Positions 28,833 through 61,332 of a stretch of DNA of 63,002 nt are shown piece after piece (position 1 is the stretch's first letter; the number at the start of each line of letters is the position of its first letter). The translations under genes were made by a program, and so were the position numbers. The DNA is taken from the IMG/VR virus record IMGVR_UViG_3300045988_138661; one strand, given 5' to 3'. The notes under the pieces were generated by a model that was not told the origin of the DNA, made no database searches, and saw nothing but the letters and a program-made list of their open reading frames with translations. The stretch comes from a virus.

Positions 28833-29555
28833 ATGGCTGGTAGTCGTATTTCATGGAGCGATGTTCGCGCTCTATATGATACTTTAAATACTGCTTAGAC
28901 TCGTTTTTCTCAATCTCGCACGGCTGCTCCCTCAAATGAGGGGCGTCGTACGAGAGAAAGTGACATTACTACTTTAAAAAATGAAATTGAAAATTTAAGA
29001 AATGTTTCTTATGTAGGAACTTAGGCTACTTTTTCTAATTTTACCGCTCCAAGAGCTAATGAACTTATGAAACGAGTCCCTTTAGAGGAAATTAGAAGTA
29101 AACTTGATACTATAAATGGCATTTGCGCCTATGATGGAGCGAATTATACAAGCAATAATGGTTATCGTGGTGCTAACTATACAAGTAATAATAGTCAACG
29201 TTCTTCTTATTATTCAAGTAATGATGCTCAACGTTCTTCTTATTATTCAAGTAATAATGCTCAACGTGCTTCAGATTATTCAAGTAATAATGCTCAACGT
29301 TCTTCAGATTATTCAAGTAATAATGCTCAACGTTCTTCAAATTATTCAAGTAACTATACTTATTATACTGCTAATTATTCAAGTAATAATGGTCATAGAT
29401 CTGCTAACTATAGTAGTAATAATGGTAATAGATCTTCTAACTATAGTAGTAATAATTCTCAACGTTCTTCAAATTATTCAAGTAATTATACTTATAGAAG
29501 TGCTTATGCTTCTAGAAGTTCAAATCGTAGTGGCGCTGGTAGAGTACGCTCTTAA
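28833..29555 (+). CDS. repeat-rich Ser/Asn/Tyr peptide (candidate RiPP precursor, ~240 aa incl. two in-frame TAG); about eleven ~11-aa repeats (consensus NYSSNNAQRSS)
   Basis: ATG 28833 after RBS aaggagag is in frame with track ORF 29067..29555 through TAGs at 28896 and 29022. Confidence 0.5.
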
Positions 29556-32489: not shown

Positions 32490-32784
32490 AGAAATGAAAA
32501 GACAAATTCAACACTTAGATGATACTTTTGATCCTTCTAATGTTGGAGATTATAAAGATTTATTATATGTAATCTATTTAAATTGGATTGAAAATAATGG
32601 AGAAAACGAAGAAGTCAATTCTCTTATTAACAATTTAATTAAAAGAATTATTGATTCTAGCATTAATGATAATAATAATTGTGATAATTGTAATGAAGAT
32701 GAAGATCCTAATATGAGTGAAGATTATTTAATTTATCGCCATTTCTTAGGATATAAAATTCCTGGCTATTGGCGTAATCATTAA
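32486..32784 (+). CDS. hypothetical acidic protein (~99 aa)
   Basis: ATGA overlap. Confidence 0.45.
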
Positions 32785-33372
32785 TGTTAATTAATTTATA
32801 TAATGCTCGTCAAACTTTATTAAGATCAGTAAAGTTTGACGAGCGTGAATGCGATGATATTGTTTTTGGATTAAATTTTCCAAAAGAAATTACTTTTTGC
32901 AAAATTGTAAATAATTCAAATGATATAGAATATTCTTCATTAAATTATCTATATAGTCAATTAAAAGATTTAGAATATAAAGATATAAAAATTATTGAAT
33001 TAGTTTTTAATCAAAAACAAAAATTTACGTTTGAATCTACAGTAAAATCTATTTTTTATAGAACAATGTTATATTCAAGTTAGGGACAATTGGAATTTAA
33101 ATTATATTTAACTTTACGATTTGAAGAAGAACATCCAATTATTTACGATAAAGAAGAATAGATTTTAAAGTGTGACAAAAATTGTAAACAGTTAAATAGA
33201 AAAATACATCGTTGTGAATTTTTTCATAGTGATTTAAATGATATAAATGAAATTTGTACGGAATGTTTTTTGTAGGAAAGAGATAACCAAATAAAAGAAT
33301 TGGTTAATTATAATAGAGATATTATAAATGTTTTGGAGAATAAATATGGAAATAGATAGAACTAAAAATTAT
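32784..33372 (+). CDS. hypothetical protein (~196 aa with four in-frame TAG); Cys pairs
   Basis: manual codon walk: only TAG interruptions until TAA. Confidence 0.4.
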
Positions 33373-35423
33373 CAAGGGATTCCTCCTTATACTAATCCAA
33401 TATGGAAATCGGTTTATGATGGTGTTAGTTTAGAAATGCATATTGTAGATCATTGTAATCTTAATTGCGCAGGATGTAATCATTTTTCCCCTTTAGCAGA
33501 ACCTTGGTATATTGATTTAGATGATTTCCGTGATCAGATTACTTTTGCTTATAAAAAAATTCCAAATATAAAACTTTTTATGATTTTAGGTGGAGAACCT
33601 ACTTTGCATCCAAAATTATTTGAAATATGTTAGATTGCTAGAGAAGTTTTCCCAAAAAATAAAGTAGAAATTAAAATATTAAGCAATGGGTGTCATTTAC
33701 AAGATGCTTTTAAACATGAGAAAGAATATCAAGATATGGGAGTAATATTTGATATTACTACTTATGGGAAATATACTGATCATAAAGCGGTAGAATATTT
33801 AGACAGTCATGGTTTAGGTTTTAATCATAATTCAAGATTATTTATGCGACAATAGCTTGTAAATGAAGCAGGAACTACTGATATAAATGAAGTATATTTT
33901 CATAAATGCCCGCATTAGTTACCTTGTTTTACTTTAAAAAATTATAAAATTTATATATGTCCTTTTTCTGCACATTTGGATATTTATAGAAAAAAATATA
34001 ATGTAAATATTCCAGAAGATGAAAGTGATTATTTGCGATTAGAGGATATAAATAATTTAGATGATTTACATAATTTTATTTTTAAGCCTAAAAATATTTG
34101 TAGATATTGCGATGGAACTATGTCTAAAGCCTCTTGGATTTGGCACAAATATTATGATACAAAATCGGAATTTATAGTTCCAATGGAAGATGCTTATTTT
34201 AGAGATTATGATTTTTATTTAAAATTAGTTAATGATAAAGAAAATTTTTTAGAAAATTATTAGTTATTTAAAGAAAACAGATGCCCAATTGAATTTAGAT
34301 ATAATACTTATTATTTAAAAAAATGTTTTACTCGTTTTATTGATGGAAAAATGGATATTATAATACCTTATTATAATATGAATGATTAGCAAATTATTAA
34401 TTTGTATAATAATTTATCTACCCAAACAATTATAAAAGATTGTTGTGTATATTTTATTAGCGACCATTCTTTCTATGATAAAAAACTTATTGAGATATTT
34501 GATGAAGCGAGTTTTCCTTGTTTCTTTTTTAAGAATTTAAAACGAAAAGGACCAGGTCTAACTCGTAATTTAGGATTAGAATATTCTTTTAATAAATATG
34601 TGTTATTTTGGGATTCTGATGATTTATTCCCAAATGATAATGTTTTAGAAATTTTATATAATTCAATAAAACATAATGAGAAAGATTTTGGAGTATTTAA
34701 AATAGCTAATACTGATAAATCAGTTGAAAAGATTAATTTAATTCTTAAAAGAGATTTTCTTAATAAAAATAATATAAAATATTCAAAATTTTTCTTTGGA
34801 GAAGACAGTATTTTCTTGGATAGATGTGATATTTATGGTGAATCTTATGAGTTAGAAGACTAGAATTTAGGTCTTTATATAACTTAGTTAGAAGACAATC
34901 CTAATTGTTTATCTCATTCTAATTCTAACATGGTAATTACAGCATATATTAATAAAATAATTGTATTTTTTGCTAATTTTATTGATGTTTTGAAATTAGA
35001 AAATATTGATGAAAATCGTAAACAAAGTACTTTAAGACGGAATCTTTATAGAATTATTAATGAAATAAAATCAATAAGTGATTTAGATTCTTCTTTTTAT
35101 GGATATGAAAATAATTATTTTTTAGAAAAAATTCTTCTTTTAATTTATTATATTTTATATACTATGTATAATTTATATAGTAACAAAGAAGATTTTAATA
35201 ATATTCCCAATTTGTGTAATTTAGATAAACAAATTATAGAAGATATCAAAAGTTAGAAAATTAAATTTAGTCTTCTAAGAGGAGAATGTATAACTAATTT
35301 TGATGATATTAAAAATGAAATTTATCCATTGTTAAATTATCTTAACAATGAATTATGCTATGTGCCTACTTATGAATGGTTTCTGAATTATTTAGATGGA
35401 AAAGGAGAGAGTATTTATGATTG
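33328..35423 (+). CDS. radical SAM domain fused to GT2-like glycosyltransferase-like region (~698 codons, eight in-frame TAG)
   Basis: CNLNCAGC CX3CX2C and GGEPTLHP near N-terminus; later GPGLTRNLG..YVLFWDSDDLF resembles GT2 DxD region; track ORFs 33328,33976,34402,34930 all in frame 1 separated only by TAG. Confidence 0.5.
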
Positions 35424-35599
35424 AAACTTATCAAGAATATAAAGAAAAAGTTTATTTTCTTCTAAATAATTTTTTAGATTTTACTAAAGGAGATAAACCT
35501 TATTTATTTAATATGCCTTCAAAATTAGGCAATCTTCCTAATCTAAATGAATATTTATATTTTTGTTTTAATAAATCTGATGCAGGAGAAAATAAATGA
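35418..35599 (+). CDS. hypothetical small protein (60 aa)
   Basis: overlapping start, TGA stop. Confidence 0.4.
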
Positions 35600-36132
35600 G
35601 GTTTACTGATTATCATTTTGGATAGGCAGAGTCTGACTTTTGGACTTTATTAAAAGAATTTCTATTAAGGTTTGATCCCAATAGTATTTATGATTTTTGG
35701 ATTTTATTTATTTATTTTTAGTTAGGTATTATTAGAAAAGATAGATTTATCATTTATTAGGTATAGTATATTTTAAAAGAAAAAATAGATTTTGAAGAAA
35801 TTAATGAAGTAAATTTTAATACAATTATTCCAATAGAAAAGATAAATTTATCTAGTTTAAAAGATTGTATTTGGATAAGCTATTGGATTTGTTAGTATAA
35901 TTATTAGAATGATGAAAATTTAATTTTAATTTATAGTGAGAAAATATTTAATAATCTTACTAATATTTTTGAGCCGGATATTGTTATAGATATTCCAATA
36001 GTGTAGTAGAGTAATAAAATATGTAAAATGTGCGGTTTAGAGTCTAAATCTAATGGATAGAATATACCATTTTTTAAAATAAATGATAATAAATATTTAT
36101 GTCCTAATTGTTATTATTTATTAAAATTAAAT
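35596..36132 (+). CDS. hypothetical protein (~178 aa, nine in-frame TAG), C-terminal CxxC pairs
   Basis: ATGA overlap with upstream TGA; manual codon walk ends at TAA. Confidence 0.4.
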
Positions 36133-36231
36133 GAATAATTATTAAAACCTACTTTTATAGTAGGTTTTAATTGATTTTTAATAAAAAATAATGTATTATA
36201 ATTATAAGATAAATGAAAAGGGTGTGTTTAT

Positions 36232-38016: not shown

Positions 38017-38027
38017 TAGGAGATTAT

Positions 38028-39030: not shown

Positions 39031-39585
39031 ATGGCAATTCCAAAAGCAATAGAACATATGCGTAGTGGAAGTGGCGGTTTAGAAATTATTCCAATTATTT
39101 CTACTGATGGATTAACTTACACAGGAACCGCAAAATCTATTAAAGAATATAAAGACGGAATGATTATTGGTCTTATTCCAAATATGAATAATATTGCGAC
39201 AAATCCAATTACTAATATAACGATAAATATAAATAATTTAGGAGCATTAAAATTAACTCAATATTATATTAAAAAAGAACATTCTAATAATGGATTAGGG
39301 TGTTGGCACAGCAATACTGCTGTAGAAGCCAATTTTTTATATAAAGATGAAGCTTTTATTGGATAGATACAATTAGGGTCATCTAGTGGTGATTATATTT
39401 TACCTATTAATCCAGGATTAGACTTAGCTTAGATTACTAATGGTTCTATTGGGTCTAATTTGTCTGTCACTGCTAATTCTTCTTATTTAAACAATAATAT
39501 TTTAAGAAATATTAAAGTATCTACTTCTGCTCCCACCGCTTCAGACGGAAATGTTGGAGATATTTGGATTTAGTATTTCACTTAA
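39031..39585 (+). CDS. phage structural protein candidate (~184 aa, three in-frame TAG)
   Basis: RBS aaggaggt; continues in frame past TAG 39364 to TAA 39583. Confidence 0.45.
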
Positions 39586-39601: not shown

Positions 39602-41017
39602 ATGCCAAATACTTATAATCCTTCTGGAACTTCTATAACAGATTATTCTTCTATTAAATTTATTCCAGGAGATATTATTAATAGTAGCTATTCAGGAGCG
39701 GTAAATCCAGTAAAACTTCCAACGGGAAATTATCAATTAGAATGTTGGGGTGGCTATGGTGGAATTGGTTATTCTGGTTCTTTAACTTCATCAACAACAA
39801 CTTCATGGATATATATAGGAACTAATAATGCAACTAGTTATTTTAGCATTAATAATGATTCAAATTATTATTTCCGTCAAGATGGAAATGACTGGATAGC
39901 TACAAATGGCGGTATACATTCAAGTACTGCAACCACTACATTAACTTGTACTTCTGCGGGAACTTACAAGATTTATTATTATTATCAGACTGAAGTAAAT
40001 TGTGATAAAGTTACTTTAACTGTTGGAGGATCAACGGTTTTAAATGCCGTATCGGGGTCATAGTCTTTAACTGAAGCTGGTAGCTATTCTTTATCATCAG
40101 GGTCTACTATTGTAATGACTTATTCTAAAGATAGTTCAGTAAATGCCGACAATGAAGAAGTTTATTTTTAGATTTAGAAATAGGAGAGTAATACTACTTA
40201 TACTCCCACAAGTTCAAAAAATAGTTATTGGGGTGGAGCAGGAGGATATTCTACAGGAATTCTTTCTTTATCAGCCCCTACTGTTATCTATTTGTATACA
40301 GGAGGTTAGGGTAATTATTCAAGTAATAGTGAAAAAGGAAAAGTAGTTAGTGGCGGATTTAACGGAGGAGGTAGCTCTAGAATCAGATGGTATACTTCTG
40401 CTTATACATCAGGAGGTGGCGGAGGTGGCGCTTCCGATGTTCGTATAGGCCAAGACTCTCTTTACGCCCGTGTAATTGTTGCTGGCGGTGGTGGCGGTGG
40501 CGCAGGAGAAAGCAATTCTTCTATTAAATAGGGCGGTGGATTAACTGGTAATTCTGCTGTTGAAGAATATAAAGCTACGTAGACTAAAGCCGGAACAAAT
40601 GGATCTTTTGGCCAAGGGGCTGATGCTAGTGGATCTGCCAATTATAATTATGGTCCCGGTGGTGGTGGTGGAGGCTGGTACGGTGGTGGTGCTTCTACTA
40701 ATGTTAGTGACAGTTCCGCCGATTATAGAACTTATAATGGCGGAGGTTCTGGCTATGTATATACTTCATCAACTGCCTCTAATTATCCTTCTGGCTGTTT
40801 GTTAAATAGTAATTATTATTTAACAAATGCTTCTACTGCTATAGGATATAGTAAAACCAATCCAGGAGGGCAACATGGGTATATTCGTATTACAGTATTA
40901 TCTCCATTAAATGTAAAAATTAATCCTAACACCTATGCTCCTATTAAAGCAATATATACAAAAATAGATAACACAACTTGGAAAGGAGGAATGACTACAT
41001 GGCAACCTATGACTTAA
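39602..41017 (+). CDS. glycine-rich repeat protein (~471 aa, about seven in-frame TAG), paralog of next gene
   Basis: LECWGGYGG, GGGGGGASDVRIGQDSLYARVIVAGGGGGG, GGGSGYVYTSSTASNYPSGCLLNS blocks shared with 40999 CDS; frame continuity checked (726 nt = 242 codons between 40064 and 40790). Confidence 0.55.
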
Positions 41018-42336
41018 CTTCTTCGATTCCTTCTTCTTCTTCTTTAAGAACGGGGGATATATTAAATTGTCCTTATAGTGGATCTGCTAAATCAATTACT
41101 CTTCCAAAAGGCACTTATAAATTAGAATGTTGGGGAGCACAAGGTGGAAATGCAGGTTATTATAGTTATGTTCATTCAACCCCTAATGGAGGAAAAGGTG
41201 GATACTCTACTGGTGTAATCACTTTATCTTCAAGTGTTATAGTATATCTTTATACCGGAGGACAAGGAGGAAGTACTATCGGGAATAAGCTAGACTAGAA
41301 TTCAGTAGCTACAGCACCTGGTGGATTTAATGGAGGTGGCATCGCTAATCAAATGGGAGCCGCTGGTGGTGGTGGAGCTTCTGATATTCGCATAGGCCAA
41401 GATTCTCTCTATGCTCGTATAATCGTCGCTGGAGGCGGTGGTGGTGGAGGCAATGCGAGTAGTTCTACTTTATTATCTTGTGGCGGAAATGGTGGAGGAA
41501 CTACTGGTGGAACTCCACCTAATTAGCACAATAATAGAACCCCAGGAAAAGGAGGAACTCAAACTGGAATAACAGCTAGTCGTTCATCATCAATTTCTGC
41601 GGGATTTGGTAATGGAGCTGGTGGTACGGGAGAAAATCTTCGTGGAGCCGGTGGCGGTGGCTGGTATGGTGGAACTATGGGTGAAAATTCAACTGGCGGA
41701 GGTGGAGGTTCTGGTTATGTATATACTTCCTCAACTGCTTCTAATTATCCATCTGGTTGCTTATTGAATAGCACTCATTATCTTAGTTCTGCTTCTACAA
41801 TAGCTGGCGACACTTCATTCACTTCTCCAACAGGGTCATCTGAAACAGGTCATAGCGGAAACGGGTATATAAGAATTACTATTTAGTCTATTGTTAACTG
41901 GGCTTATTCTACTGTATCAATTCCTGCTCCTACTTATAGTAAATAGGATACTTCTTCTTGGACTTTATCTCCGAGTGCTTGCAGGTATTTTTCTTTTACC
42001 CCTACTATTTCAGGAGATTTTATTGTTTATTCCAATTCTTCAATAGATACTTTTGGCTATTTAACATCAAATATTGTTTCTCTTAATAGTAGTGGATAGC
42101 CTTCTTCTAATATTTTAGCTAGTGATGATGATTAGGCAAAAAAATATGGTGGATCTGGAAGTAATTTTGGTATTTGTTATAAAGTTACTGCTGGAACTAC
42201 TTATTATATATATGTTAAGCCTTATCGTGATAGTACAGCAAATAGTTCAGTATATTTAACTTATTATATGGCTCATCCTGACAGTAGAGTATATGTAAAA
42301 ACAGATAGTACAACATGGAAATTAATAACCAATTAA
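40999..42336 (+). CDS. glycine-rich repeat protein with C-terminal PPC-like beta domain (~445 aa, several in-frame TAG)
   Basis: RBS aaggagga; track ORFs 40978 and 41677 in same frame; ends TAA 42334. Confidence 0.55.
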
Positions 42337-45212: not shown

Positions 45213-45282
45213 GGGATATAAATTCTACAACCTTCACGTGGTATATCCTGTTTTTACTAATGTAGAATAAAATAAATAATAT

Positions 45283-49508: not shown

Positions 49509-50366
49509 ATGAAGATATATTCTCCAAGTAATTATTCATATATAAAAATTATTGAAATTCCAAAAGAAGAAATTAGCAAGTTGGATATGGCGTTATGCGC
49601 TCAACCGCGTTAGACTTTAAAGCAATACTATGATAGTTGCGCGGTTAAACCTACTATTTTAACTAATGGTGGTTTTTTTAGCATGGATAATGGTGGCACT
49701 TGTTTTAATTATATGGACGATGGCGTAATCATTAATTCCACTTCTTCTTATAAAGAAGGTTTTGGTATTATTAATGGTGAATTGAAATACGGTATAATTG
49801 GAACAGAAAAGTTTGAAGATTTTGTTAGCGGTTATCCAGTATTGATTAAAGCTGGTAAAAAAGCTCAAATTACTTATGCTAAAGAGTTAAATTATAAAGC
49901 TCGTAGAACAGTATTAGCATATAATAAATTTAATATTTATTTAATTGCTATTGAAAAGCCAGGTATGGCATTTACAGAAATGTAGAATTTACTTTTAGCA
50001 TTAAAAGTTGATTATGCAATTAACCTTGATGGCGGTGGTAGCACAAAAGTTCTTCATAATGGAACTTGTATCACTAAGGATTGGGGCGATCGCGCAGTCG
50101 ATAATGTAATGGCTATTTATCTTAAACCGCAAATTATTTATCGCGTTCAACTTGGTGCTTTTGGATCTAAATCCAACGCTGACGCTTTCTTATTGAAAAT
50201 TAAAGCATTACCTGATACTATTGGAGCAGGTTATAAAAATGCTTATATTCGTAAAATTGGTAAGTATTATAAAGTTCAAGTTGGTGCTTTTTCTGTCAAA
50301 GCAAATGCTATAAAAGTAATTAATGATTTAAAATCAAAAGGTTATAATGCGTTTTTAACTACTTAA
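49509..50366 (+). CDS. cell-wall-associated protein: phosphodiester-glycosidase-like core (NLDGGGS) plus two C-terminal SPOR repeats (~286 aa, two in-frame TAG)
   Basis: ATG 49509 after RBS aaggaaggtg; track ORFs 49683 and 50109 are in the same frame separated by TAG; YRVQLGAFGSKSNA and YKVQVGAFSVKANA SPOR-like repeats. Confidence 0.5.
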
Positions 50367-50998: not shown

Positions 50999-51191
50999 TA
51001 AGACACATACAGCAATTCTTTCATTAGAAAGGTATACAGGTTCAAATCCTGTAAACTCCAATTGGGGTTTTGGCGAAATTGGTTAACGCACATAACTTAA
51101 AATTATGTTTCTAATGTGTCTAGTTTGAAATAACTTTTTTGATTTTTTATAAAAAATATAATATAATATATATAGAAAGTTAAGAAAGGAA

Positions 51192-51480: not shown

Positions 51481-51730
51481 CCGAACGCAGGATTGGTTCG
51501 ATTCCAATAATCAGCTGTAATTAGTGTAATGGTTGAGCACAGCGTTCGCGTCTTAAATATATCAAAGACACCACAAACTGCGAATTTTCTATAACAGAAG
51601 ATACAGAGATATTGTTTTACCAATAATTTTTGATTGCCTATTGAAGGTGTAGTCTGTTTGGGGTAAGAGAGAATTAATCGACAAATAGATGAAATGAATT
51701 GATTGAAATTCTTTGGTGTCTTGTTTTATA

Positions 51731-51928
51731 CGGCCGTCGCCAAAATGGTAAGGCACAGGACTTTCTCAAAATCAGTTAAATGAGTTATATAATATGACGG
51801 GGTTAAGTAGTATTATATAAGTTCTGTTAGTAGGCTTCCGGTTCTATAAAACCGAGAATGTTGGTGCAAGTCCAACTTTTGAGCCCTGACTCCTGCATCT
51901 GCTGGTTCGAGTCCAGCCGGCCGTGCCA
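51731..51928 (+). tRNA. tRNA gene split in anticodon loop by ~120-145-nt insertion (Gln CUG/UUG or Glu UUC depending on junction)
   Basis: 5-prime half acggccg tc gcc aaaatggtaa ggc a cagga ct..; 3-prime half ..tcctg catct gctgg ttcgagt ccagc cggccgt g cca; all stems complementary. Confidence 0.45.
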
Positions 51929-52061: not shown

Positions 52062-52181
52062 ATGATTTGTCGCACTAAAGAGCATTATGAAAATCGCATT
52101 GCGAAGTTGTATTCCCATAGTGAAGTTATGAATCAGCGCCTCATTAATAAGATGAAGCGAAAACTCCGTAAGTTGAATTAA
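52062..52181 (+). CDS. small basic protein (39 aa)
   Basis: RBS taaggagaaaaatt; unlisted small ORF directly upstream of suppressor tRNA. Confidence 0.3.
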   Translation: MICRTKEHYENRIAKLYSHSEVMNQRLINKMKRKLRKLN

Positions 52182-52190
52182 GGAGTTTAT

Positions 52191-52262
52191 TGAGGGGTAG
52201 CATAGCGGCAAATGCGCTGGTCTCTAAAACCAGATAAGTGGGATCGACACCCACCCCCTCCG
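52191..52262 (+). tRNA. suppressor tRNA, anticodon CUA (reads UAG); Gln-like features
   Basis: acceptor tgagggg/cccctcc (1-72 mismatch), U8 A9, D-arm gcat-agcggcaa-atgc, anticodon arm ctggt-ctCTAaa-accag, 4-nt variable loop, T-arm gtggg-atcgaca-cccac, G73; no encoded CCA. Confidence 0.65.
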
Positions 52263-52496
52263 CGGTGCTAAAAACAAAACCTCCTCGTGGTAGCACTGGG
52301 TAATGCTAATTTGTTTATAAAGGTAATAAAGGCAATATGTATAAAAGTCATTGATAAGTCCTTTTATACGATAGGAAGTAGGATTAGAAGCGTCCATCTT
52401 TTAAAGAGCGAAATGCGGCGATCGGGTATTTCCTTGGTCCAGTAGACACACTATCGGAGGTTGTGGGTTAACCTAATTAAAACCCTCAAAATAAAA

Positions 52497-53445: not shown

Positions 53446-54969
53446 ATGTCATATTTTAATGCTAGTTTGGACTGTGAAAATGGTACAATATATTGCTCTG
53501 GATCAGTAGATCCTCCTGTCATTACATCAATAGAACTTTATATTCGTATTAAAATAAATGGTATAGACTCTGGTTATATTTATGTTGGAAGCGGTTCAAA
53601 CAGAATACGTTTTAATGAAGAGATTCCAAATTATGATCATGTTAACTTTGATAGTTATAATGATTATGAATTAATAGTATTAGATGGTGATTTATATGAA
53701 TTAGGTGCTTATACTCCTTGCACTGGTTCTTTTTATGCTTCATCATCGGGAGGAGGAGGAGGAGGCGGTGGATCGGGCGGAACTGATCCAATGTACGCTT
53801 GTTATGATGTTACAACTGGAAATTATATAAACGGTTGGACGCAAGGTAGTTTTGGTATGACCGCTCCCTCTTATGGTAGTAGTTATACTTATTTAGGATA
53901 TTGCCCTGGTAATTCAGAATAGGAATGTTTAAATTATTATACTAATAATGGCACTACATGGAGTCAAGATTCTACTTATATAGTAGGAGATTGTAGTTAT
54001 GTTATATTTTTTTATAGACAAAATTTATCTTATGCTTATATAACTTATTATTATAATGGAGGATCTGGTAGTTATAATAATGGAGCTCAAAATGCTTTTT
54101 CAAGTACAACTCAACCTTGGAACATATATTTAGATACTCCTTCGCGCTCTGGATATAATTTTTTAGGATGGACAACAGACAATTCATCAGCTTATGTGAG
54201 TAGTCCTATACAAGCATATAATGGTTCAACTTATACATTATATGCTATGTGGTAGCGAATTTATTATTATACCTATATAACCTATCACTATAATGGAGGA
54301 TCTGGTAGTTATAGTGATGGATAGCAAGTAAGTTATTCAAGTGTCAATTCTAGTCGAACTATTACTTTAGATACTCCAACAAGAGCAAATTATACTTTTT
54401 TAGGTTGGGGAACCAGTTCTTCTTCTGCTGATATTGGCACACAACTATAGGTGTCATCTACAAGCACTGTATATAAAACTTTATACGCAATTTGGCGTAG
54501 AAATACAATTATTGTAACTTATAATGCAAATGGAGGTTCTGGTGGACCCGGATCATAGACTGTTAATACCAATTCTTCTTTTAATATAAATGGATCTAAT
54601 TTTCCAACAAAGTCTAATTATATTTTTAAAGGATGGTCTACATCGTCTTCAGCAAAAACTGCAACTTATAAAAAAGGAGCAACACCTTCAATTTCTACTG
54701 GTACATCTAATATAACTTATTATGCAGTTTGGTGGCCTGTATTTACTTGGAAAGATTATTCCAGAAGTGAAGCAAATACTTTCGCAGGATATATAAATAC
54801 TTATCTAAGTAAATCAATCTCTTCTATTGATGACACAAATCCTCTGCGGTTAGTTATTTGGTTTAATGCAATAGCTACGGCATTAAACAATAATACTAGA
54901 CTTGCATCAGGAGACGCAAGTTTTAAAGCACAATTAGATACTCTATTAACTGCATATAATAATTATTAA
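53446..54969 (+). CDS. surface-binding / receptor-binding candidate with three Listeria-Bacteroides (Flg_new-type) repeats (~507 codons, about six in-frame TAG)
   Basis: RBS aaaggaggaa; repeats GYNFLGWTT..YTLYAMW, NYTFLGWGT..TLYAIW, NYIFKGWST..YYAVW; ends TAA 54967; terminator hairpin 54977-55010. Confidence 0.55.
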
Positions 54970-55360: not shown

Positions 55361-56614
55361 TTGGCTGATGTTTATATGAAATCAAAATTTTATTTTAAAC
55401 GCGGAAAGGCAGCTTCTTGGGCTGAAAAAAATGTACTCTTAGGCCCTGGTGAGCCTGGGTTTGAAATAGATACTGGTAGATTGAAAGTTGGCGATGGTAT
55501 TCGCACTTGGAATGATCTTCCTTACCTTACAGAAAATGAAATAAAAAACGGAATAAATGATGTTGCTTATTTTATTGGATAGAAAGAATCTTTACCAGAA
55601 GATCCAAATACTAAAGAAGGTACAATGTGTTTAGTCGGTGAAGATTTTTATATTTATGATGGAAAAGAATGGAGAGAATTAAAAAGCAAATCTTCTCAAG
55701 GAACTATTGAAGTTATAAAAATAAAAGGTGAAGATCAAGAATCTTCTTCTGCTGATGAAGTAGAAATTAATGGAACAAAATATTCCACTATTGAAGAAGC
55801 TATTCAAAATACCACTAATAATGATACAATAATTTTGTAGAAAACAGTCAAAAATATTAACATTCCAGAAGGAAAAAATATTAATATTGATTTAAATAAT
55901 ATCAACATCTTAAATAACGAAGACAATCCAGTTAAAATTAATAATAACGCTTCTCTAATTATTTCGGGAGAAGGATGCGTTGAATGTAATAAACATGGTA
56001 AAGCATCTATTGAAAATAATGGAAATACAACTATTATAAATGGTGAATATAAGCGTTCTATTGATGAAAAAGGTAATGGATATTACGTAATAGTAAACCA
56101 TGGCGAAATGTCTATTTATGATGGAATATTTTCTTCTCCTGGTGGATTATCTAGTATGATTGAAAATGGATATTATGATTATCTTTCTCAATACCATTTA
56201 GGCGAGTCTGCGGAATATCCTAAATTAATTATTAATGGTGGTACTTTTATTAATACTTATACTACTATTAAAAATGATGATGCTGGTATTTGTGAAATTA
56301 ATGGTGGTAATTTTTATGGTATGCTTTATAACGTTGGTAAAAGTTTAACTATAAATGATGGTTATTTCTATACTAATGATGGCTATGAAATTATTCAATG
56401 TAAAAAAAATAATGATGATATTAATGCTGGTATTTTAACTATTAATGGAGGAATTTTTGAAACTACTTGCGATAAAATTCTTTCTAGTATAAATAATGCC
56501 GAAATTATTATTAAAGGTGGAAAATTTAATAAACCTCTACCCGAAGAATTTATTGCTTCTGGATATAAACAAAAATTAGTAGATGGTTATTATAATATAA
56601 TAAAGGAGGGATAA
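55361..56614 (+). CDS. tail fibre / beta-helix-like structural protein (~417 codons, two in-frame TAG)
   Basis: track ORFs 55361, 55625, 56108 share frame 2; N-terminal GDGIRTWNDLPYL motif shared with 56991 and 61419 products. Confidence 0.5.
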
Positions 56615-58245: not shown

Positions 58246-61200
58246 ATGACTCGCGAAGAATTTTTTGCCGCTAAAAATAAAGGCGCTTTATGGGATGTTG
58301 GCGTAAGTATTAACCGCACTAACCCACTGCCCCTTGATAAGAATGCGGTTTTTGATACTTATGAAAATGCCCTTACTTATGCTAAAGGTGTTTTAGCTTA
58401 TCCTGGTCAGTTTATCGCTGTCGTTGGCGAAGACGCGGTTACCGGTTATTTAATCACTGTTGCAGGTGGTGAAGGAGCTACTCTTGTTAAGCTCGCTCAA
58501 ACTTCTGGTTCTGGTGATGTTAACGAGCAATTAAATGCTTTATCTACTAAAGTTAATAATATCGTTAATGAAATTGGTAAAGCCTCTACAGATGGCTCCG
58601 ATGCTACTGGTCTTTATAAACTTATTGAAGCTAATAAAAATGCTATTACTGTTTTAAATGGTACTGTTCAGACAGAGGGTTCAGTCAAGAAAACTGTTTC
58701 TGATGAAATTGCTAAAGTTATTGGCAAAGCGCCTGAGACTTTTGATACTTTACAAGAAATTGCTACTTGGATTGAAACTCATGGTACACAAGCTACTGGA
58801 ATGCAGACTGCTATTAGCAAACTTGAAACTATTCTTGAAGGTATTGGTGGCGAAGGAGAAAAGGCTACTGTAGTTGCTTATGTTACCGATGCTATTAATG
58901 CATTAAAGAATGGTGATATTAAAACTGCTTAGGATAATTTAGCAGCTCTTACCACACGTGTAGATGGACATGATACTAAGCTCGGTGAACTTGAAACTGC
59001 GATTGCTGGGGTAAAGGCTACTGCGGATGCAGCTGTTGTTGCTAACGCTAGTATCACTGGTGGAACAGCTACTAAAGTTACTTTTGATAGTAAGGGCTTA
59101 ATTACTGGTAGTAGTTCTTTAGTTGCGGAAGATATTCCAAATATTGCTATCAGTTAGGTTGATAACCTTTCTAGTGAGTTAAGCAAGAAACAAAATAATC
59201 TTGCTATTAGCGATAAATATAGTGAAACTACTTCTAAGATTGCTTCTATGAAGGATATTACTGATGCTTCTAATGCAATTCTTGGTGATTCTGCCACTGA
59301 TACTGAAGCTTCTAATACTCTGGCTGGTCTTAAGAAGTATGCTGATAAAAAAGCTTCTGACGCTGAGTCTAATGCTAAAGCCGATACAAAGAGTAAAACC
59401 GATGCTCTTGATGCTCGTTTAAAGAGCGTTGAAGATGCTGTTGGTTCTACTGGTAGTGTTTCTGAAGCTATTAAAGCTGCTAAGGAAGAAGCTATTAATG
59501 CCGCTGCTACTGACGCTACAACTAAAGTTAATGCTGCTAAAACTGATATCCTTGGTGCAGAAGGTTATACTCATACTGTAAAGGATGCTTATGAATTAGC
59601 TGATGGTAAGACTACTATGGCTGAGGTTGAAGCCAAGGATTATGCTACCAAGAGTTATGTTGATACTCAAGATGGCGTACTCAAAGGCACTGTTGCTGAC
59701 CAAGATACCGAAGTTACCATTTATGGTGCTCGTAAGTTAGCTCAGAAAGGCATTGATGACGCAGCTGCTGCTAAAACTGCCGCTGATAATTACAATACTG
59801 CTTTAACTAATACTATCAGTACTGTTAAGAGCGATTTACTTGGCTCTACTGAAGATGATAGCACTAAAGAAACCATTCGTGGCGCACGTAAGTATTCTGA
59901 AGCTAAAGCTAATGCTGTCCTTGGTACTGCTCAAGATACTGCTTCTGAAAAGACAGTTTATGGTGCATTCGCCGCAGCTAAAGCCGCACAGGACAAGGCT
60001 AATGCCAATGAAACGGCTATTGGTTCTGATACTACTACTGGTTCAGTAAAGGGTCGTATCAAAACTTTAGAAACCACTTCTGCTAGCTATGGCGCTCGTA
60101 TTACTAAGAACGAATCCGATATTGCCTCTCTCGTTGGTAATATGTCTGGCGTCTTCCATTTCAAGGGCGCAGCAACTAAAACTGGTACTGAACTTTATGT
60201 AAGTGGCGCTCAAGTAGTTGAAAAAGCAGTTGGTGACGTTTATACCGTTGGCGAGGAAGAATACGCTTGGTCTGGATCTGCCTGGATTATGCTTGGTATT
60301 ACTACCGATCTTTCTAACTATTATGATAAGAGCGCAATTGATAAAAAGATTGCAGGCTTCTCTGGGGCTTTCCACTTCAAGGGTGTTGCTAATCAATTCG
60401 ATAATGTTGGTGCTCCTATTGTTTCTAATCCTGCTGAAGGTGACGTTTGGCTTGATAATGATAATGCACAATGGGCTTGGAATGGCGAGAAATGGATTAA
60501 ACTTGGTTTCTTAACTGATCTTACTGGTTATGCTACCACTGCTGAAGTTGATGCTAAAATTGAAGGTGCTCTTCAAGGACTTTATACTTTTAAGGGTGAA
60601 ATTGAATCTCTTGATAATGTTGTTAGTCCAACCCGTGGCGACGTTTATGTCGTTCCTCAAAAAGATGGCTCTAAAAAGCAATATGCCTATTCTGGTGATG
60701 GCAACTGGGTAGAAATCTCTACTAATGTCGATTTAAGTGCTTATGCTTTAACTACTGCGGTTGATGAAAAGATCCGTGTTGCCAAGAATCAAGCAAATAA
60801 TCTTGCTACTGAGCTTTCCGCCACTGCTGAAACTAATGCTAAAGCTTATACTGACACTCAGCTTGATACTCTTAAGGGTGGTTCTACTAAGACCATTAAA
60901 GAAATTCAAACTGTTGCTGAAAGTGCTCAAACTCAGGCTGGTACTAATGCTAACGCAATTACTGCAATTAATACTTCTCTCACTGAGACTGGAACTGTTG
61001 GTAGAAAGATAAAAGCTAATGCGGATGCTATTAGAGCTATCCAAGAGGCAGATTATGCAAGAATTACTTCTGAGAAAATCGCCCAGTGGGATGCTGCTCA
61101 ACCTAATGTAATTGAAAAGATTCAAGTTAATGGCACTGAAATCGCAATTAGTGAAAAGACTGTTAATATTCCTCTTGCTACCGCAGCTCGCGCAGGTTTA

Positions 61201-61332
61201 ATTATTAGCTCTGATGCTGAAAATGCTATTAGCGTTTCTGATACTGGTGTAGCTACTGTTAATAATATAAATGTTAATAAATTAGTTCAAACCGCTGGTG
61301 ATGAACTTATTCTTAACGGTGGAAATGCTTAA
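58246..61332 (+). CDS. large tail fibre protein (~1028 codons, two in-frame TAG) with Ala-rich coiled-coil segment and three ~70-aa repeats (FHFKG..GDVY..W.G..W..LG)
   Basis: track ORFs 58246 and 59248 are in frame 1, separated only by TAG at 58930 and 59155. Confidence 0.55.

What the first reader, a model, noticed from the sequence alone, without database searches (positions are those of the whole stretch)
52191..52262. Phage-encoded amber-suppressor tRNA (anticodon CUA) with Gln-like features
Hand-folded cloverleaf with anticodon loop ctCTAaa. The D-arm agcggcaa, the weak 1-72 pair, G73 and the 4-nt variable loop resemble bacterial tRNA-Gln. It sits in the tRNA array downstream of a consensus promoter. 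Together with the many genes in this window that are open only if TAG is read through, this points to TAG-to-sense (probably Gln) reassignment of the kind seen in code-15 phages.
Basis: partly seen in the sequence, partly recalled or inferred. Interest (0 to 1): 0.9.

Follow-up and report, generated by a model that had tools for sequence, protein, structure and literature searches.

The report
Phage amber-suppressor tRNA with ribozyme tail
This is a real phage gene for a tRNA that reads the stop codon TAG as an amino acid, most likely glutamine, and it is followed by a small self-cleaving ribozyme that probably trims its 3' end; gut phages that recode their late genes are already known to do this.

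Summary
A 72-nt cloverleaf tRNA with anticodon CUA lies at 52191-52262 (+) (ARAGORN; Rfam tRNA 52.3 bits).

Fourteen + strand genes carry 54 in-frame TAGs. Pfam domains run across these TAGs, and the TAGs are conserved in relatives. Where relatives differ, the aligned codon is most often CAA or CAG. No gene needs TAG as its stop (TAA 35, TGA 8).

One base after G73 a minimal HDV-like "theta" ribozyme begins (52264-52317; independent covariance model 50.7 bits, E about 6e-11). The unit is therefore a tRNA-Sup plus theta ribozyme, as described by Kienbeck et al. 2024 for code-15 gut phages.

Gln identity does not rest on overall similarity to tRNA-Gln, which is not diagnostic. It rests on the codon evidence, U35, and an acceptor end shared by all 11 distinct CUA tRNAs of this phage group: a 1-72 mismatch, G2-C71 and G73.

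Close relatives hold three unrelated CUA tRNA bodies between near-identical flanks. The slot corresponds to tRNA-Gln(CUG) in other phages.

No release factor or synthetase is in the window, and the promoter claim is not confirmed.

Verdict: new member of a known kind, moderate interest.

The parts
52191..52262 (+). Amber-suppressor tRNA with anticodon CUA (52224-52226). It has a U1.C72 mismatch, G2-C71, G10 and discriminator G73 (52262). CCA is not encoded; base 52263 (C) would be C74.
   Evidence: ARAGORN. Rfam RF00005 at 52.3 bits. Cloverleaf minimum-free-energy fold. Three compensatory pairs among three orthologues.
52264..52317 (+). Minimal HDV-like 'theta' ribozyme. Its domains are P1 GGUGCU/AGCACU with a G1.U wobble, J1/2 AA, P2 AAACAAA/UUUGUUU, P3 ACC/GGU, L3 UCCUCGU, P1.1 GG with the CC of L3, L4 GUAAUG, and J4/2 CUAA with the catalytic C at 52306. 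The predicted cleavage is 5' of G52264, which would leave the tRNA ending ...G73-C74 with a 2',3'-cyclic phosphate.
   Evidence: Rfam RF02682 at 27.7 bits, below the gathering score of 44. Covariance model R1, built from 36 ribozymes of other phages, scores 50.7 bits with E 5.9e-11 over the whole window with filters off. The domain layout matches Theta0001 of Kienbeck et al. 2024 domain for domain. A descriptor scan gave 19 hits, all abutting a tRNA 3' end.
52063..52182 (+). A 39-codon ORF (MICRTKEHYENRIAKLYSHSEVMNQRLINKMKRKLRKLN) with an AAGGAG ribosome-binding site. It forms the conserved left flank of the suppressor-tRNA slot and ends 8 nt before tRNA base 1. It has no in-frame TAG. Function unknown.
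   Evidence: Sequence. About 98% identical in relatives that carry different tRNA bodies.
52369..52457 (+). Structured RNA resembling helices 42-44 of 23S rRNA (the L11-binding GTPase-associated centre, E. coli 1051-1108). It forms the conserved right flank, 52 nt after the ribozyme. It is linked to the slot by position only; its function is unknown.
   Evidence: Weak Rfam LSU match of 15.9 bits. Alignment to E. coli 23S. A family of related elements 3' of tRNA-Gln, tRNA-CUA and tRNA-Trp genes in other phages. RNAalifold predicts 24 pairs, 11 with compensatory change.
51730..51928 (+). tRNA-Gln(UUG) gene interrupted by a 123-nt insert in the anticodon loop (CUUU | insert | GAC). It has A1-U72, G73 and an encoded CCA. 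It is the phage's ordinary Gln tRNA and lies upstream of the suppressor.
   Evidence: ARAGORN in intron mode finds the split tRNA but calls it Glu(UUC) with a splice point one base away. The exons are homologous to the intact tRNA-Gln(UUG) of L265, with an identical anticodon arm, and to the E. coli tRNA-Gln D-arm. The insert is conserved in all close relatives.
24713..25453 (+). Gene with 2 in-frame TAG.
   Evidence: 94-98% identical across the TAGs in L005 and L007.
28833..29555 (+). Gene with 2 in-frame TAG (Ser/Asn/Tyr-rich repeat protein).
29587..31086 (+). Radical-SAM-like gene with 1 in-frame TAG. Relatives have CAA or CGA at that position.
31086..32489 (+). Cys-rich (SPASM-like) gene with 1 in-frame TAG. 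Relatives have CAA x3, CAG x2 and CAT x1 at that position.
32784..33365 (+). Gene with 4 in-frame TAG.
33328..35424 (+). Radical SAM + glycosyltransferase-2 fusion gene with 8 in-frame TAG. Both Pfam domains span TAGs.
   Evidence: 97 homologues, 85 of them of full or near-full length. Codon table.
35596..36138 (+). Gene with 9 in-frame TAG in 180 codons and no CAA or CAG at all.
39031..39585 (+). Gene with 3 in-frame TAG.
39602..41017 (+). Glycine-rich (ALK_LTK_GRD) protein gene with 7 in-frame TAG.
   Evidence: Pfam E 8.5e-34 across three TAGs. Paralogue alignment places TAG opposite Q.
40999..42336 (+). Glycine-rich (ALK_LTK_GRD) paralogue with 6 in-frame TAG.
   Evidence: Pfam E 2.3e-46..
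49509..50366 (+). NAGPA + SPOR cell-wall enzyme (endolysin-like) gene inside the tRNA array, with 2 in-frame TAG. At residue 159 the relatives have TAG 16, CAA 18, CAG 6.
   Evidence: The standard-code gene call in a relative is truncated to 100 aa.
53446..54969 (+). Flg_new-repeat (tail-fibre-like) gene with 5 in-frame TAG.
55376..56614 (+). Mtd_N tail-fibre-like gene with 2 in-frame TAG.
58246..61332 (+). 1028-codon fibre-like gene with 2 in-frame TAG.
45213..45268 (+). Second theta ribozyme of the window. It abuts tRNA-Glu(CUC) (45138-45212), which also lacks an encoded CCA.
   Evidence: Descriptor scan. Model R1 at 36.1 bits, E 2.6e-7..

Best explanation
The window comes from a large gut phage; relatives have genomes of about 195 kb, and the host is probably a Bacillota bacterium. 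The phage writes part of its gene set, including fibre-like, cell-wall-enzyme and radical-SAM genes, with TAG as a sense codon.

The gene at 52191-52262 encodes the tRNA that makes this possible. The proposed sequence of events is as follows.
1. The tRNA is transcribed within the tRNA array, probably together with the 39-codon ORF just upstream.
2. RNase P cuts its 5' end.
3. The adjoining theta ribozyme cuts its 3' end in cis between C52263 and G52264.
4. The cyclic phosphate is removed and a CCA-adding enzyme completes C75-A76.
5. A host enzyme charges the tRNA with glutamine. Glutaminyl-tRNA synthetase is the most likely enzyme. It would recognise U35, the unpaired 1-72 position, G2-C71, G10 and G73.
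6. The Gln-tRNA(CUA) competes with release factor 1 at UAG. Genes containing TAG are therefore completed only once the suppressor has accumulated.

Shown by computation: the tRNA and its fold, the ribozyme motif and its position, TAG as a conserved in-frame sense codon, and Gln as the best-fitting amino acid.

Inferred: self-cleavage, the charging enzyme, and any timing role.

TAG is sense:
- 54 in-frame TAGs lie in 14 genes. All 43 + strand genes examined end in TAA (35) or TGA (8).
- Pfam domains are continuous across TAGs.
- In-frame TAGs are conserved in close relatives, 11 of 11 and 3 of 3.
- The only TAG aligned to a stop codon lies in a spurious minus-strand ORF.

TAG is Gln:
- The likelihood ranking puts Q first in five relatives: L005 -57.2 against -66.2 for the next best, L006 -69.4 against -87.3, L007 -31.0 against -37.5, L003 -9.3 against -21.4, L004 -9.9 against -24.5.
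- Gln accounts for 18 of 102 distinct (position, codon) events and is the commonest class.
- In the NAGPA-SPOR gene, the codon 159 column has TAG 16, CAA 18, CAG 6.
- A paralogue pair aligns TAG with Q.
- CAG:CAA is 53:22 in the TAG-free genes at 1.5-24 kb but 16:103 in the TAG-containing genes. TAG therefore looks like the replacement for CAG.

Acceptor-end signature:
- All 11 distinct CUA tRNAs of the phage group, covering five different acceptor stems and both short and long variable arms, have a 1-72 mismatch plus G73 plus G2-C71.
- None of 364 other distinct tRNAs has a mismatch with G73.
- In the same phages, 19 of 20 tRNA-Gln have a weak 1-72 pair plus G73.
- CUA tRNAs with an E. coli-Gln-like acceptor stem UGGGG..CCCCA-G occur in other phages.

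Position:
- In other large phages the gene order is Gln(UUG), Gln(CUG), then the GAC-like RNA. Here it is split Gln(UUG), tRNA(CUA), ribozyme, then the GAC-like RNA.

Ribozyme:
- The two ribozyme-flanked tRNAs are among the 5 of 18 that lack an encoded CCA. Kienbeck et al. 2024 (PMC10879173) report the same association.

Precedent:
- E. coli tRNA-Trp with anticodon CUA is charged by GlnRS (Yaniv et al. 1974, as cited in PMC2965240).
- TAG-to-Gln was shown by metaproteomics in other gut phages (PMC9523058).
- GlnRS opening the 1-72 pair and reading G73, G2-C71, G10 and U35 is established knowledge (Rould et al. 1989; Jahn et al. 1991). I recalled this and did not test it here.
Against: - There are no protein or RNA data for this phage.
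- The tRNA body is not recognisably Gln-derived: the best body matches are Cys and Phe at 65%, Gln 60% and Trp 57%.
- Its anticodon loop (C32, A37, A38) and A36 differ from tRNA-Gln. G3-C70 and U38, which are E. coli GlnRS elements, are absent.
- Weak 1-72 pairing plus G73 is shared with tRNA-Trp in these phages. Lys is a known mischarging outcome for amber suppressors in E. coli.
- The host is unknown. If it lacks GlnRS, the indirect route would have to accept a C34 tRNA.
- Two TAGs lie 1-4 codons before the TAA of their genes (32784-33365 and 39031-39585) and could still act as stops.
- The Rfam HDV score is below the gathering threshold, and E is only 0.43 over the whole window.
- No release factor, synthetase or CCA-adding enzyme was found in the 63 kb.
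Confidence: 0.85

Rival explanations
1. The tRNA is a working amber suppressor but delivers an amino acid other than Gln. Trp is possible because the anticodon arm, G73 and weak 1-72 pairing resemble tRNA-Trp. Lys is possible because it is a common mischarging outcome for CUA tRNAs. Tyr is a third candidate.
For: The anticodon arm GGUCUC-N-AAAACC is identical to that of tRNA-Trp(CCA) in E. coli and in these phages. All 8 Trp tRNAs of the group have A1-U72 plus G73. The D-arm resembles a Trp(CCA) tRNA of L003. About 19% of theta-ribozyme-associated suppressors were typed Trp by tRNAscan-SE in Kienbeck et al. 2024. LysRS mischarges many amber suppressors in E. coli. K, N and S are frequent opposite TAG.
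Against: The codon likelihood puts Gln ahead of Lys by 8.8-34 ln units and far ahead of Trp, which appears in 1 of 102 events. TAG alternates with CAA and CAG at the best-conserved columns. CAG is depleted exactly where TAG appears. C35 is the main TrpRS determinant, and E. coli tRNA-Trp(CUA) switches to Gln.
Confidence: 0.08
2. Gln is inserted, but the tRNA is charged by the indirect route rather than by GlnRS. A non-discriminating GluRS would make Glu-tRNA(CUA) and GatCAB would amidate it. GatCAB would accept the tRNA because the 1-72 position is not a G-C pair.
For: The host is probably Bacillota, judged from the SPOR domain shared with Faecalibacterium-phage endolysins, an SLH protein in a relative, and Lachnospiraceae/Clostridia homologues. 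Many bacteria lack GlnRS (PMC7373986). The 4-nt variable loop is a feature of Glu/Gln-type tRNAs (my recollection). GatCAB reads the U1-A72 position (my recollection).
Against: GluRS enzymes depend on U34 and U35-C36 (my recollection), whereas this tRNA has C34 and A36. Relatives also carry tRNA-Gln(CUG), which implies a host that charges C34 Gln tRNAs. The acceptor signature is the classical GlnRS one. Host identity and its synthetase set were not determined.
Confidence: 0.15
3. The tRNA is a decayed or regulatory tRNA-like gene, and the TAG-interrupted reading frames are pseudogenes or genuinely short genes. TAG would remain a stop.
For: The 1-72 mismatch and A54 in the T-loop are unusual. 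Removing any stop codon lengthens ORFs in an AT-rich genome; TGA-as-sense gives a similar naive gain.
Against: Domains are continuous across TAGs. TAGs are conserved in frame, and Gln codons lie opposite them in relatives. Compensatory changes keep the cloverleaf. The 1-72 mismatch recurs in five independent acceptor stems. Suppressor bodies are exchanged while the slot is kept occupied.
Confidence: 0.03
4. It is a pyrrolysine tRNA, as the ARAGORN label 'tRNA-Pyl' says.
For: Only the CUA anticodon.
Against: ARAGORN labels every CUA tRNA as Pyl. This tRNA has an 8-nt D-loop, a 5-bp anticodon stem and a 4-nt variable loop, unlike tRNA-Pyl, which has a small D-loop, a 6-bp anticodon stem and a 3-nt variable loop (my recollection). 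No pyl genes appear among the ORFs scanned. Relatives place Gln codons opposite TAG.
Confidence: 0.01

Closest known systems
tRNA-Sup(CUA) + theta ribozyme units of gut Caudoviricetes (Kienbeck et al., Nat Commun 2024, PMC10879173)
   Same: An amber-suppressor tRNA without encoded CCA is followed within 1 nt by a minimal HDV-like ribozyme. The ribozyme has the same domain layout and the same conserved nucleotides (ACC-U-CC-NCGU-GGU, GG, GUAAYG, CUAA). The phage carries many in-frame TAGs. A second ribozyme lies behind another tRNA of the same array.
   Different: P1 has 6 rather than 7 base pairs, as do several other members found here. One extra base (C74) lies between G73 and the cleavage site. 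This exact ribozyme and tRNA sequence was not found in the stored, truncated part of their supplement. The predicted host phylum is Bacillota, the minority case in their data. No CCA-adding enzyme or DRB0094 ligase is in the window.
Code-15 (TAG to Gln) phages: Lak, crAss-like, and the Sapphire, Agate, Garnet and Topaz clades (Borges et al. 2022, bioRxiv 10.1101/2021.08.26.457843), and phAss-1 (PMC10607447)
   Same: A standard-code block sits beside blocks with in-frame TAG in fibre and lysis-type genes. The phage encodes a suppressor tRNA and usually no synthetase. It has low GC (34.7%) and TAG is not used as a stop. Relatives have genomes of about 195 kb and about 145-150 kb, close to the sizes given for Sapphire (201 kb) and Agate (154 kb).
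   Different: Clade membership could not be tested because the window has no terminase. There is no megablast or protein-level relative in the INPHARED phage collection. No RF2 'code-change module' is in the window.
Classical E. coli amber suppressors that insert Gln: supE (glnV, CUG to CUA), su7 (tRNA-Trp CCA to CUA, charged by GlnRS), and mischarging mutants of su3 tRNA-Tyr with changes at positions 1, 72 or 73
   Same: All have a CUA anticodon with U35 and an acceptor end with an open or weak 1-72 pair and G73. In close relatives the same slot holds a long-variable-arm (Tyr/Ser/Leu-like) CUA tRNA with U1.U72 and G73, much like the su3 mischarging mutants.
   Different: Those are laboratory point mutants of host tRNAs. 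This is a natural phage gene with no recognisable parent isotype. The su3 comparison rests on my recollection of the 1970s genetics and was not tested here.

Membership tests
Elongator tRNA (Rfam RF00005) | Cloverleaf with a 7-bp acceptor stem, D, anticodon and T arms, U33, and a score above the family's gathering score | tested here: met
   52.3 bits against a gathering score of 29. ARAGORN call. Cloverleaf minimum-free-energy fold. 20 of 21 pairs are standard; the exception is 1-72.
Amber-suppressor tRNA of a TAG-recoded (code-15) phage | Anticodon CUA in a 7-nt loop | tested here: met
   Loop CUCUAAA, anticodon at 52224-52226.
Amber-suppressor tRNA of a TAG-recoded (code-15) phage | The genome has conserved in-frame TAG inside real genes, and TAG is not needed as a terminator | tested here: met
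   54 TAGs in 14 genes; stops are TAA 35 and TGA 8. Domains span TAGs. TAGs are conserved in relatives.
Amber-suppressor tRNA of a TAG-recoded (code-15) phage | TAG positions correspond to Gln in homologues | tested here: met
   Gln ranks first by likelihood in five relatives. Column counts. Paralogue alignment. CAG depletion.
Amber-suppressor tRNA of a TAG-recoded (code-15) phage | Gln actually incorporated at UAG | not testable with these tools
   Needs proteomics. It has been shown for other phages (PMC9523058).
tRNA-Gln by descent (isoacceptor family) | Overall sequence closest to tRNA-Gln | tested here: inconclusive
   With the anticodon loop masked, the best identities are Cys and Phe 0.65, Asn 0.62, Gln 0.60 and Trp 0.57. 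No isotype stands out. tRNAscan-SE isotype models are not available here.
Substrate of bacterial GlnRS (E. coli identity set, recalled: U35, G36, A37, U38, G10, weak 1-72, G2-C71, G3-C70, G73) | Acceptor-end elements: unpaired or weak 1-72, G2-C71, G73; also G10 | tested here: met
   U1.C72, G2-C71, G73 and G10 read from the sequence. The same signature is present in all 11 distinct CUA tRNAs of the group and in none of 364 other tRNAs.
Substrate of bacterial GlnRS (E. coli identity set, recalled) | Anticodon-loop elements U35, G36, A37, U38, and G3-C70 | tested here: not met
   U35 and A37 are present. Position 36 is A (unavoidable in a CUA anticodon), position 38 is A, and 3-70 is A-U. supE and su7 also lack G36 yet insert Gln.
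Substrate of bacterial GlnRS | Aminoacylation by GlnRS | not testable with these tools
   Biochemical assay needed. The host is not identified.
Theta ribozyme (tRNA-associated minimal HDV-like ribozyme, Kienbeck et al. 2024) | Nested double-pseudoknot layout P1-J1/2-P2-P3-L3-P3'-P1'-P1.1-L4-J4/2-P2' with G1, a catalytic C at the start of J4/2, and no P4 stem | tested here: met
   [quoted passage not shown] Model R1 scores 50.7 bits, E 5.9e-11. The catalytic-C control gives 19 hits against 1, 0 and 4. Their exact RNArobo descriptor is a figure and could not be run.
Theta ribozyme | Cleavage site within 5 nt of a tRNA 3' end | tested here: met
   G1 lies 2 nt after G73, with one intervening C. 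All 19 descriptor hits abut tRNAs.
Theta ribozyme | Self-scission | not testable with these tools
   Needs in vitro transcription.
HDV ribozyme from F. prausnitzii (Rfam RF02682) | Score at or above the gathering score of 44 bits | tested here: not met
   27.7 bits. The model's 15-nt P4 region is absent here. This is expected for the minimal subclass, so it does not count against the theta assignment.
'Code-change module' (suppressor tRNA + synthetase + release factor; Borges et al.) | A phage-encoded aaRS and/or RF next to the suppressor | tested here: not met
   No aaRS or RF family was found in any ORF of 290 aa or more scanned with Pfam or PHROGs; 58246-61332 was not scanned but is a fibre-like repeat protein. 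The rest of the roughly 195-kb genome was not seen.
tRNA-Pyl | Compact D-loop, 6-bp anticodon stem, 3-nt variable loop, and pyl genes | tested here: not met
   8-nt D-loop, 5-bp anticodon stem, 4-nt variable loop. No pyl genes in the window.

The most novel reading that the evidence does not exclude
The suppressor may be one exchangeable part of a conserved module for Gln decoding and termination control.

In many large phages the gene order is tRNA-Gln(UUG), tRNA-Gln(CUG), then a structured RNA that copies helices 42-44 of 23S rRNA. That region is the L11-binding GTPase-associated centre, including the loop equivalent to the A1067 loop. In this lineage the Gln(CUG) slot has been taken over by CUA tRNAs. 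At least three unrelated bodies occupy it in close relatives. They share only the anticodon arm and a Gln-type acceptor end. In this lineage the slot is also fitted with a ribozyme.

The most novel reading is that the rRNA-like RNA is a decoy. It would titrate L11 or another factor that binds this centre. It would thereby weaken RF1-dependent termination at UAG, or blunt the L11-dependent stringent response, or bind a thiopeptide-like product of the neighbouring YcaO/radical-SAM cluster. In this way it would help the code switch.

The structured RNA family and its linkage to Gln, CUA and Trp tRNA genes are shown computationally. Any binding or decoy function is pure inference.
Probability: 0.06. 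Interest if true: 0.8.

Novelty: new member of a known kind. Interest (0 to 1): 0.4.

Why it matters
For annotation, this window and its relatives of about 195 kb must be translated with TAG as Gln. Otherwise fibre, lysis-type and radical-SAM genes are fragmented. One relative's endolysin-like gene is on record as a 100-aa stub. A 164-kb relative is filed in a genome collection as a 'Mollicutes bacterium'.

For biology, it adds a probably Bacillota-infecting lineage to the phages that pair an amber suppressor with a theta ribozyme.

It also offers a natural experiment on an open question: who charges phage suppressor tRNAs? Near-identical flanks hold three unrelated tRNA bodies. These bodies share only the anticodon arm, G2-C71, G73 and a mismatched 1-72 position. 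That points to a small, testable identity set and to GlnRS as the likely enzyme.

Tried and rejected
- Megablast of 23 kb and a protein search against the INPHARED phage collection found no relative.
- An exact 29-mer of the tRNA was absent from 185,579 species-representative genomes.
- Naive ORF-length gain under TAG-as-sense was not discriminating, because TGA-as-sense gives a similar gain in this AT-rich DNA. I replaced it with homology-based tests.
- Nearest-neighbour typing of the tRNA body gave no clear isotype. An early impression that it is a paralogue of a phage tRNA-Trp did not hold up in the larger set.
- The shared anticodon arm CUGGUCUCUAAAACCAG is not a lineage marker. It occurs in unrelated CUA tRNAs whose acceptor ends differ (A73, G1-C72).
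- The tRNA is not a mutated copy of the phage's own tRNA-Gln(UUG) or of the Gln(CUG) of sister phages, because the sequences are unrelated.
- Searches of the Kienbeck supplement for this exact ribozyme or tRNA, and for their Sup rows, failed because the stored files are truncated.
- Cluster look-up gave no names or accessions for relatives.
- The sigma-70 promoter claim was not supported.
- tRNA-Pyl was rejected on structure.
- A release factor or synthetase was looked for and not found in the window.
Full report
THE OBSERVATION

ARAGORN finds 18 tRNA genes at 42.4-52.9 kb, all on the + strand. One lies at 52191-52263 and has anticodon CUA; the program labels every CUA tRNA 'Pyl'. Rfam's tRNA model matches 52191-52262 at 52.3 bits against a gathering score of 29. 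Over the whole window that is E = 2.3e-8. The minimum-free-energy fold is a clean cloverleaf.

Read from the sequence:
- Acceptor stem UGAGGGG/CCCCUCC, so pair 1-72 is a U.C mismatch.
- G2-C71, A3-U70 and discriminator G73.
- D-loop AGCGGCAA and anticodon loop CUCUAAA.
- 4-nt variable loop AUAA and T-loop AUCGACA.
- No encoded CCA.

The one claim that fails is the 'consensus promoter'. The scan finds nothing promoter-like on the + strand in the 900 nt upstream.

IS TAG READ AS SENSE?

With only TAA and TGA as stops, long + strand reading frames appear that contain in-frame TAGs. Fourteen genes hold 54 of them, and all 43 + strand genes examined end in TAA (35) or TGA (8).

These frames are real genes, because Pfam domains run across the TAGs:
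- Radical_SAM and Glycos_transf_2 in 33328-35424 (8 TAGs).
- ALK_LTK_GRD at E 8.5e-34 and 2.3e-46 in the paralogues 39602-41017 and 40999-42336.
- Flg_new repeats in 53446-54969.
- NAGPA in 49509-50366.

Relatives at about 96% nucleotide identity (IMG/VR contigs of 65-197 kb) keep the TAGs in frame, 11 of 11 and 3 of 3. The standard-code gene call for one relative's NAGPA-SPOR gene is a 100-aa stub, while code-15-style calls give 285 aa.

A naive gain in ORF length is not evidence here. TGA-as-sense gives a similar gain in this 34.7% GC DNA.

WHICH AMINO ACID?

I aligned the window's proteins to the DNA of relatives and tabulated the codons opposite each window TAG. I estimated each amino acid's substitution profile from the same alignments. 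Gln is the best explanation in all five relatives tested, by 6.5 to 18 natural-log units over the runner-up.

Across 63 aligned TAG positions, Gln codons make up 18 of 102 distinct (position, codon) events and are the largest class. At the best-conserved column (residue 159 of the NAGPA-SPOR protein) the counts are TAG 16, CAA 18, CAG 6 and AAA 3.

Inside the window, the paralogues read YLYTGG[TAG]G and YLYTGGQG.

Codon usage adds an independent line. The 17 TAG-free genes at 1.5-24 kb use CAG 53 times and CAA 22 times. The 14 TAG-containing genes use CAG 16 times and CAA 103 times. TAG therefore looks like the stand-in for CAG.

Trp appears once among the 102 events, and Lys is 8.8-34 ln units worse than Gln. 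TAG-to-Gln has been demonstrated by metaproteomics in other gut phages (PMC9523058).

WHAT THE tRNA ITSELF SAYS

The 'Gln-like' reading needs care. With the anticodon loop masked, the body has no clear parent among 321 phage and E. coli tRNAs. The best matches are Cys and Phe at 65%, Gln at 60% and Trp at 57%.

The anticodon arm GGUCUC-N-AAAACC is the one used by tRNAs that read UNN codons. It is identical in tRNA-Trp of E. coli and of these phages, and the window's tRNA-Tyr has GGUCUGUAAAACC. No tRNA-Gln examined has it. The same 17-nt arm occurs in unrelated CUA tRNAs of other phages, so it looks like an adaptation to decoding UAG rather than a mark of ancestry.

The informative feature is the acceptor end. 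In this phage group, all 11 distinct CUA tRNA sequences have a mismatched 1-72 position (U.C, U.U or C.U), G2-C71 and G73. They cover five different acceptor stems, and some have a 4-5-nt variable loop while others have a roughly 20-nt variable arm. Among 364 other distinct tRNAs, none has a mismatch with G73. Six have a mismatch with A73, and four of those are Met(CAU) tRNAs. The phages' own tRNA-Gln have a weak pair plus G73 in 19 of 20 cases.

Further CUA tRNAs fetched later show U1.C72 or U1-A72 with G2-C71, G3-C70 and G73. This is the E. coli tRNA-Gln acceptor stem, even on long-arm bodies.

It is established knowledge that GlnRS opens the 1-72 pair and reads G73, G2-C71, G10 and U35. It is also established that weakening 1-72 or changing position 73 to G makes other amber suppressors accept Gln (Rould 1989; Jahn 1991; the su3 mischarging mutants). 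I recalled these points and did not test them. E. coli tRNA-Trp(CUA) being charged by GlnRS is cited in PMC2965240.

Three orthologues of the window's tRNA (window, L265, L067) keep the cloverleaf through three compensatory pair changes and all keep U1.C72.

A permissive Rfam scan of the flank hit 'HDV ribozyme from F. prausnitzii' at 52264-52318. The score is 27.7 bits, below the gathering score, with the P4 region absent.

The sequence parses as |GGTGCT|AA|AAACAAA|ACC|T|CC|TCGT|GGT|AGCACT|GG|GTAATG|CTAA|TTTGTTT|. This matches, domain by domain, the commonest 'theta ribozyme' of Kienbeck et al. [quoted passage not shown]

A descriptor scan of 2.16 Mb of fetched phage DNA gave 19 hits. All 19 abut a tRNA 3' end: 13 CUA, 2 Trp, 2 Pro, 1 Ser and 1 Glu. 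Replacing the catalytic C with A, G or T gave 1, 0 and 4 hits.

A covariance model built only from 36 such ribozymes of other IMG/VR phages finds two sites in the whole window with filters off. One is 52264-52317 at 50.7 bits (E 5.9e-11). The other is 45213-45268 at 36.1 bits (E 2.6e-7), and it abuts tRNA-Glu(CUC).

These two tRNAs are among the 5 of 18 that lack an encoded CCA, as that paper reports for ribozyme-associated tRNAs. Orthologues of the suppressor that do encode CCA (L067, L265) and the sister-clade long-arm suppressor (L060) have no ribozyme.

Cleavage 5' of G52264 would leave ...G73-C74 with a cyclic phosphate.

A SWAPPABLE SLOT IN THE tRNA-Gln NEIGHBOURHOOD

The window, L069 and L077 are about 98% identical up to the base before tRNA position 1. 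They are again about 98% identical from G73-C74 and the ribozyme onward. Between these points the 72-90 nt hold three unrelated CUA tRNAs:
- the window's short-arm type;
- a 90-nt long-arm type (U1.U72), found in most close relatives (L069-L076);
- a third type (C1.U72) in L077.

The left flank is a conserved 39-codon ORF.

The right flank, 52 nt after the ribozyme, is a structured RNA (52369-52457) that resembles helices 42-44 of 23S rRNA. Related elements occur in 35 IMG/VR loci. In the 25 newly read loci the element lies 46-58 nt after tRNA-Gln(CUG) seven times, tRNA-Gln(UUG) once, tRNA-CUA once and tRNA-Trp twice. It lies closer behind an Asp or Glu tRNA once each, and 12 loci have no tRNA within 400 nt upstream. 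Ten members give a consensus fold of 24 pairs, 11 with compensatory changes.

The usual gene order is therefore Gln(UUG), Gln(CUG), then this RNA. In the window it is Gln(UUG), small ORF, tRNA(CUA), ribozyme, then this RNA.

The Gln(UUG) gene here (51730-51928) is split by a 123-nt insert in its anticodon loop. Its exons match the intact Gln(UUG) of L265. The suppressor therefore sits where a Gln(CUG) tRNA normally sits. This supports Gln by position, although the sequences are not homologous.

CONTEXT AND HOST

No release factor, synthetase or CCA-adding enzyme was found in the window, but only about a third of the genome was seen.

The TAG-free block at 9-24 kb consists of small genes of unknown function. 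TAG-containing genes include fibre-like proteins, an endolysin-like NAGPA-SPOR enzyme and a cluster of three radical-SAM genes around a TAG-free YcaO gene. This partial recoding matches the published picture of code-15 phages but says nothing direct about timing.

Host hints point to Bacillota:
- The SPOR domain resembles endolysins of Faecalibacterium phages.
- A relative encodes an SLH protein.
- Remote homologues lie in Lachnospiraceae and Clostridia.

The nearest genome-collection hit is a 164-kb contig filed as a 'Mollicutes bacterium' MAG, which is evidently the phage.

COMPARISON WITH WHAT IS KNOWN, AND VERDICT

Stop-codon recoding with phage suppressor tRNAs is well described. See Borges et al., Peters et al. 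(PMC9523058), phAss-1 and the tRNA-Sup/theta-ribozyme pairing.

The finding is a correct identification of a further example, in a lineage absent from the curated phage collection but common in gut metagenomes. It is a new member of a known kind.

The points that go beyond the literature I could search are:
- the invariant 1-72 mismatch plus G73 across unrelated suppressor bodies;
- the cassette-like exchange of those bodies;
- the 23S-like RNA linked to Gln, CUA and Trp tRNA genes.

These points raise the interest from low to moderate.

Noticed in passing
window 52369-52457 (+); also L213 8648-8746 (-), L265, L267, L268, L270, L274, L276, L277: A structured RNA resembles helices 42-44 of 23S rRNA (the L11/thiostrepton-binding GTPase-associated centre, E. 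coli 1051-1108). The shared features are the closing helix, the G.A pair equivalent to 1056.1103, the H43 stem with loop UUAGAAGCG, and the junction UUAAAGA. H44 is replaced by a longer hairpin. It forms a family in large phages and usually lies 46-58 nt after tRNA-Gln(CUG), Gln(UUG), CUA or Trp genes. RNAalifold predicts 24 pairs, 11 with compensatory change. Rfam has no family for it; the only match is a weak 15.9-bit LSU hit. A literature search found nothing. Function unknown.
   Followed up: partly
window 51730-51928 (+): A tRNA-Gln(UUG) gene is interrupted by a 123-nt insert in the anticodon loop (CUUU | insert | GAC). The insert is too short for a group I intron and matches no Rfam family. 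It contains a T-arm-like hairpin (GUUGG-UGCAAGU-CCAAC) and a possible acceptor-like pairing. It is conserved at 96-98% in all close relatives, and an intron-less homologue exists in L265. It is unknown whether it is spliced, and how.
   Followed up: partly
window 52191-52262 compared with L069 12489-12578 and L077 6666-6737: Three unrelated CUA tRNA bodies occupy exactly the same slot between flanks that are about 98% identical. The exchange boundaries coincide with tRNA base 1 and base 72, and G73-C74 belongs to the conserved ribozyme flank. The mechanism of such precise replacement is unexplained.
   Followed up: partly
window 46754-46804 (+): A match to the type-P1 twister ribozyme (RF03160) scores 41.1 bits against a gathering score of 67.2, with E 1.3e-5 over the whole window. 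It lies between tRNA-Phe and tRNA-Ser, just upstream of a 78-codon ORF. It would be a second class of self-cleaving ribozyme in the tRNA array.
   Followed up: no
window 45213-45268 (+): A second theta ribozyme abuts tRNA-Glu(CUC) (45138-45212), which also lacks an encoded CCA. Model R1 scores it at 36.1 bits, E 2.6e-7.
   Followed up: yes
window 42416-42486 (+); also L003-L006, L069, L085, L086: A low-GC tRNA-like gene (Rfam 37.5 bits) has a 6-nt anticodon loop CUUUAA. ARAGORN cannot decide between Lys(UUU) and an ochre-type UUA anticodon. It is conserved in relatives. L067 has a 76-nt gene called tRNA-Stop(UUA). TAA is the main stop codon here, so an ochre suppressor would be surprising.
   Followed up: no
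window 45677-45752 (+) and 51064-51138 (+): Rfam finds further tRNA-like matches that ARAGORN does not call, at 39.1 bits and 25.4 bits.
   Followed up: no
window 29587-38906 (+): A cluster looks like a RiPP-type modification pathway carried by a phage. It holds three radical-SAM-type genes (29587-31086, 31086-32489, and 33328-35424 fused to a GT2 glycosyltransferase), a YcaO cyclodehydratase (36232-38016, Pfam E 5e-28), a weak peptidase-U32-like gene and small TAG-rich ORFs. The YcaO gene has no TAG, while its neighbours do.
   Followed up: partly
window 52063-52182 (+): A highly conserved, very basic 39-residue ORF with a strong AAGGAG ribosome-binding site ends 8 nt before the suppressor tRNA. 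It has no database match and no known role.
   Followed up: no
L289 (CAMELE010000001.1, 163,874 bp): A contig 98% identical in the NAGPA-SPOR gene is deposited as 'MAG: uncultured Mollicutes bacterium'. It is almost certainly this phage mis-binned as a bacterial genome.
   Followed up: no
L213 about 8790-9150 (-): Upstream of that phage's copy of the 23S-like RNA lies only the 3' half of a Trp-like tRNA (…GGGGUUCAAGUCCCUGCACCCCUGCCA), preceded by an ORF. This looks like a tRNA gene split by an ORF-bearing intron.
   Followed up: no
window 32784-33365 and 39031-39585 (+): In these two genes the last in-frame TAG lies only 1 and 3 codons before the TAA. These TAGs could still act as leaky stops with a back-up terminator. 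Both are conserved as TAG in relatives.
   Followed up: no
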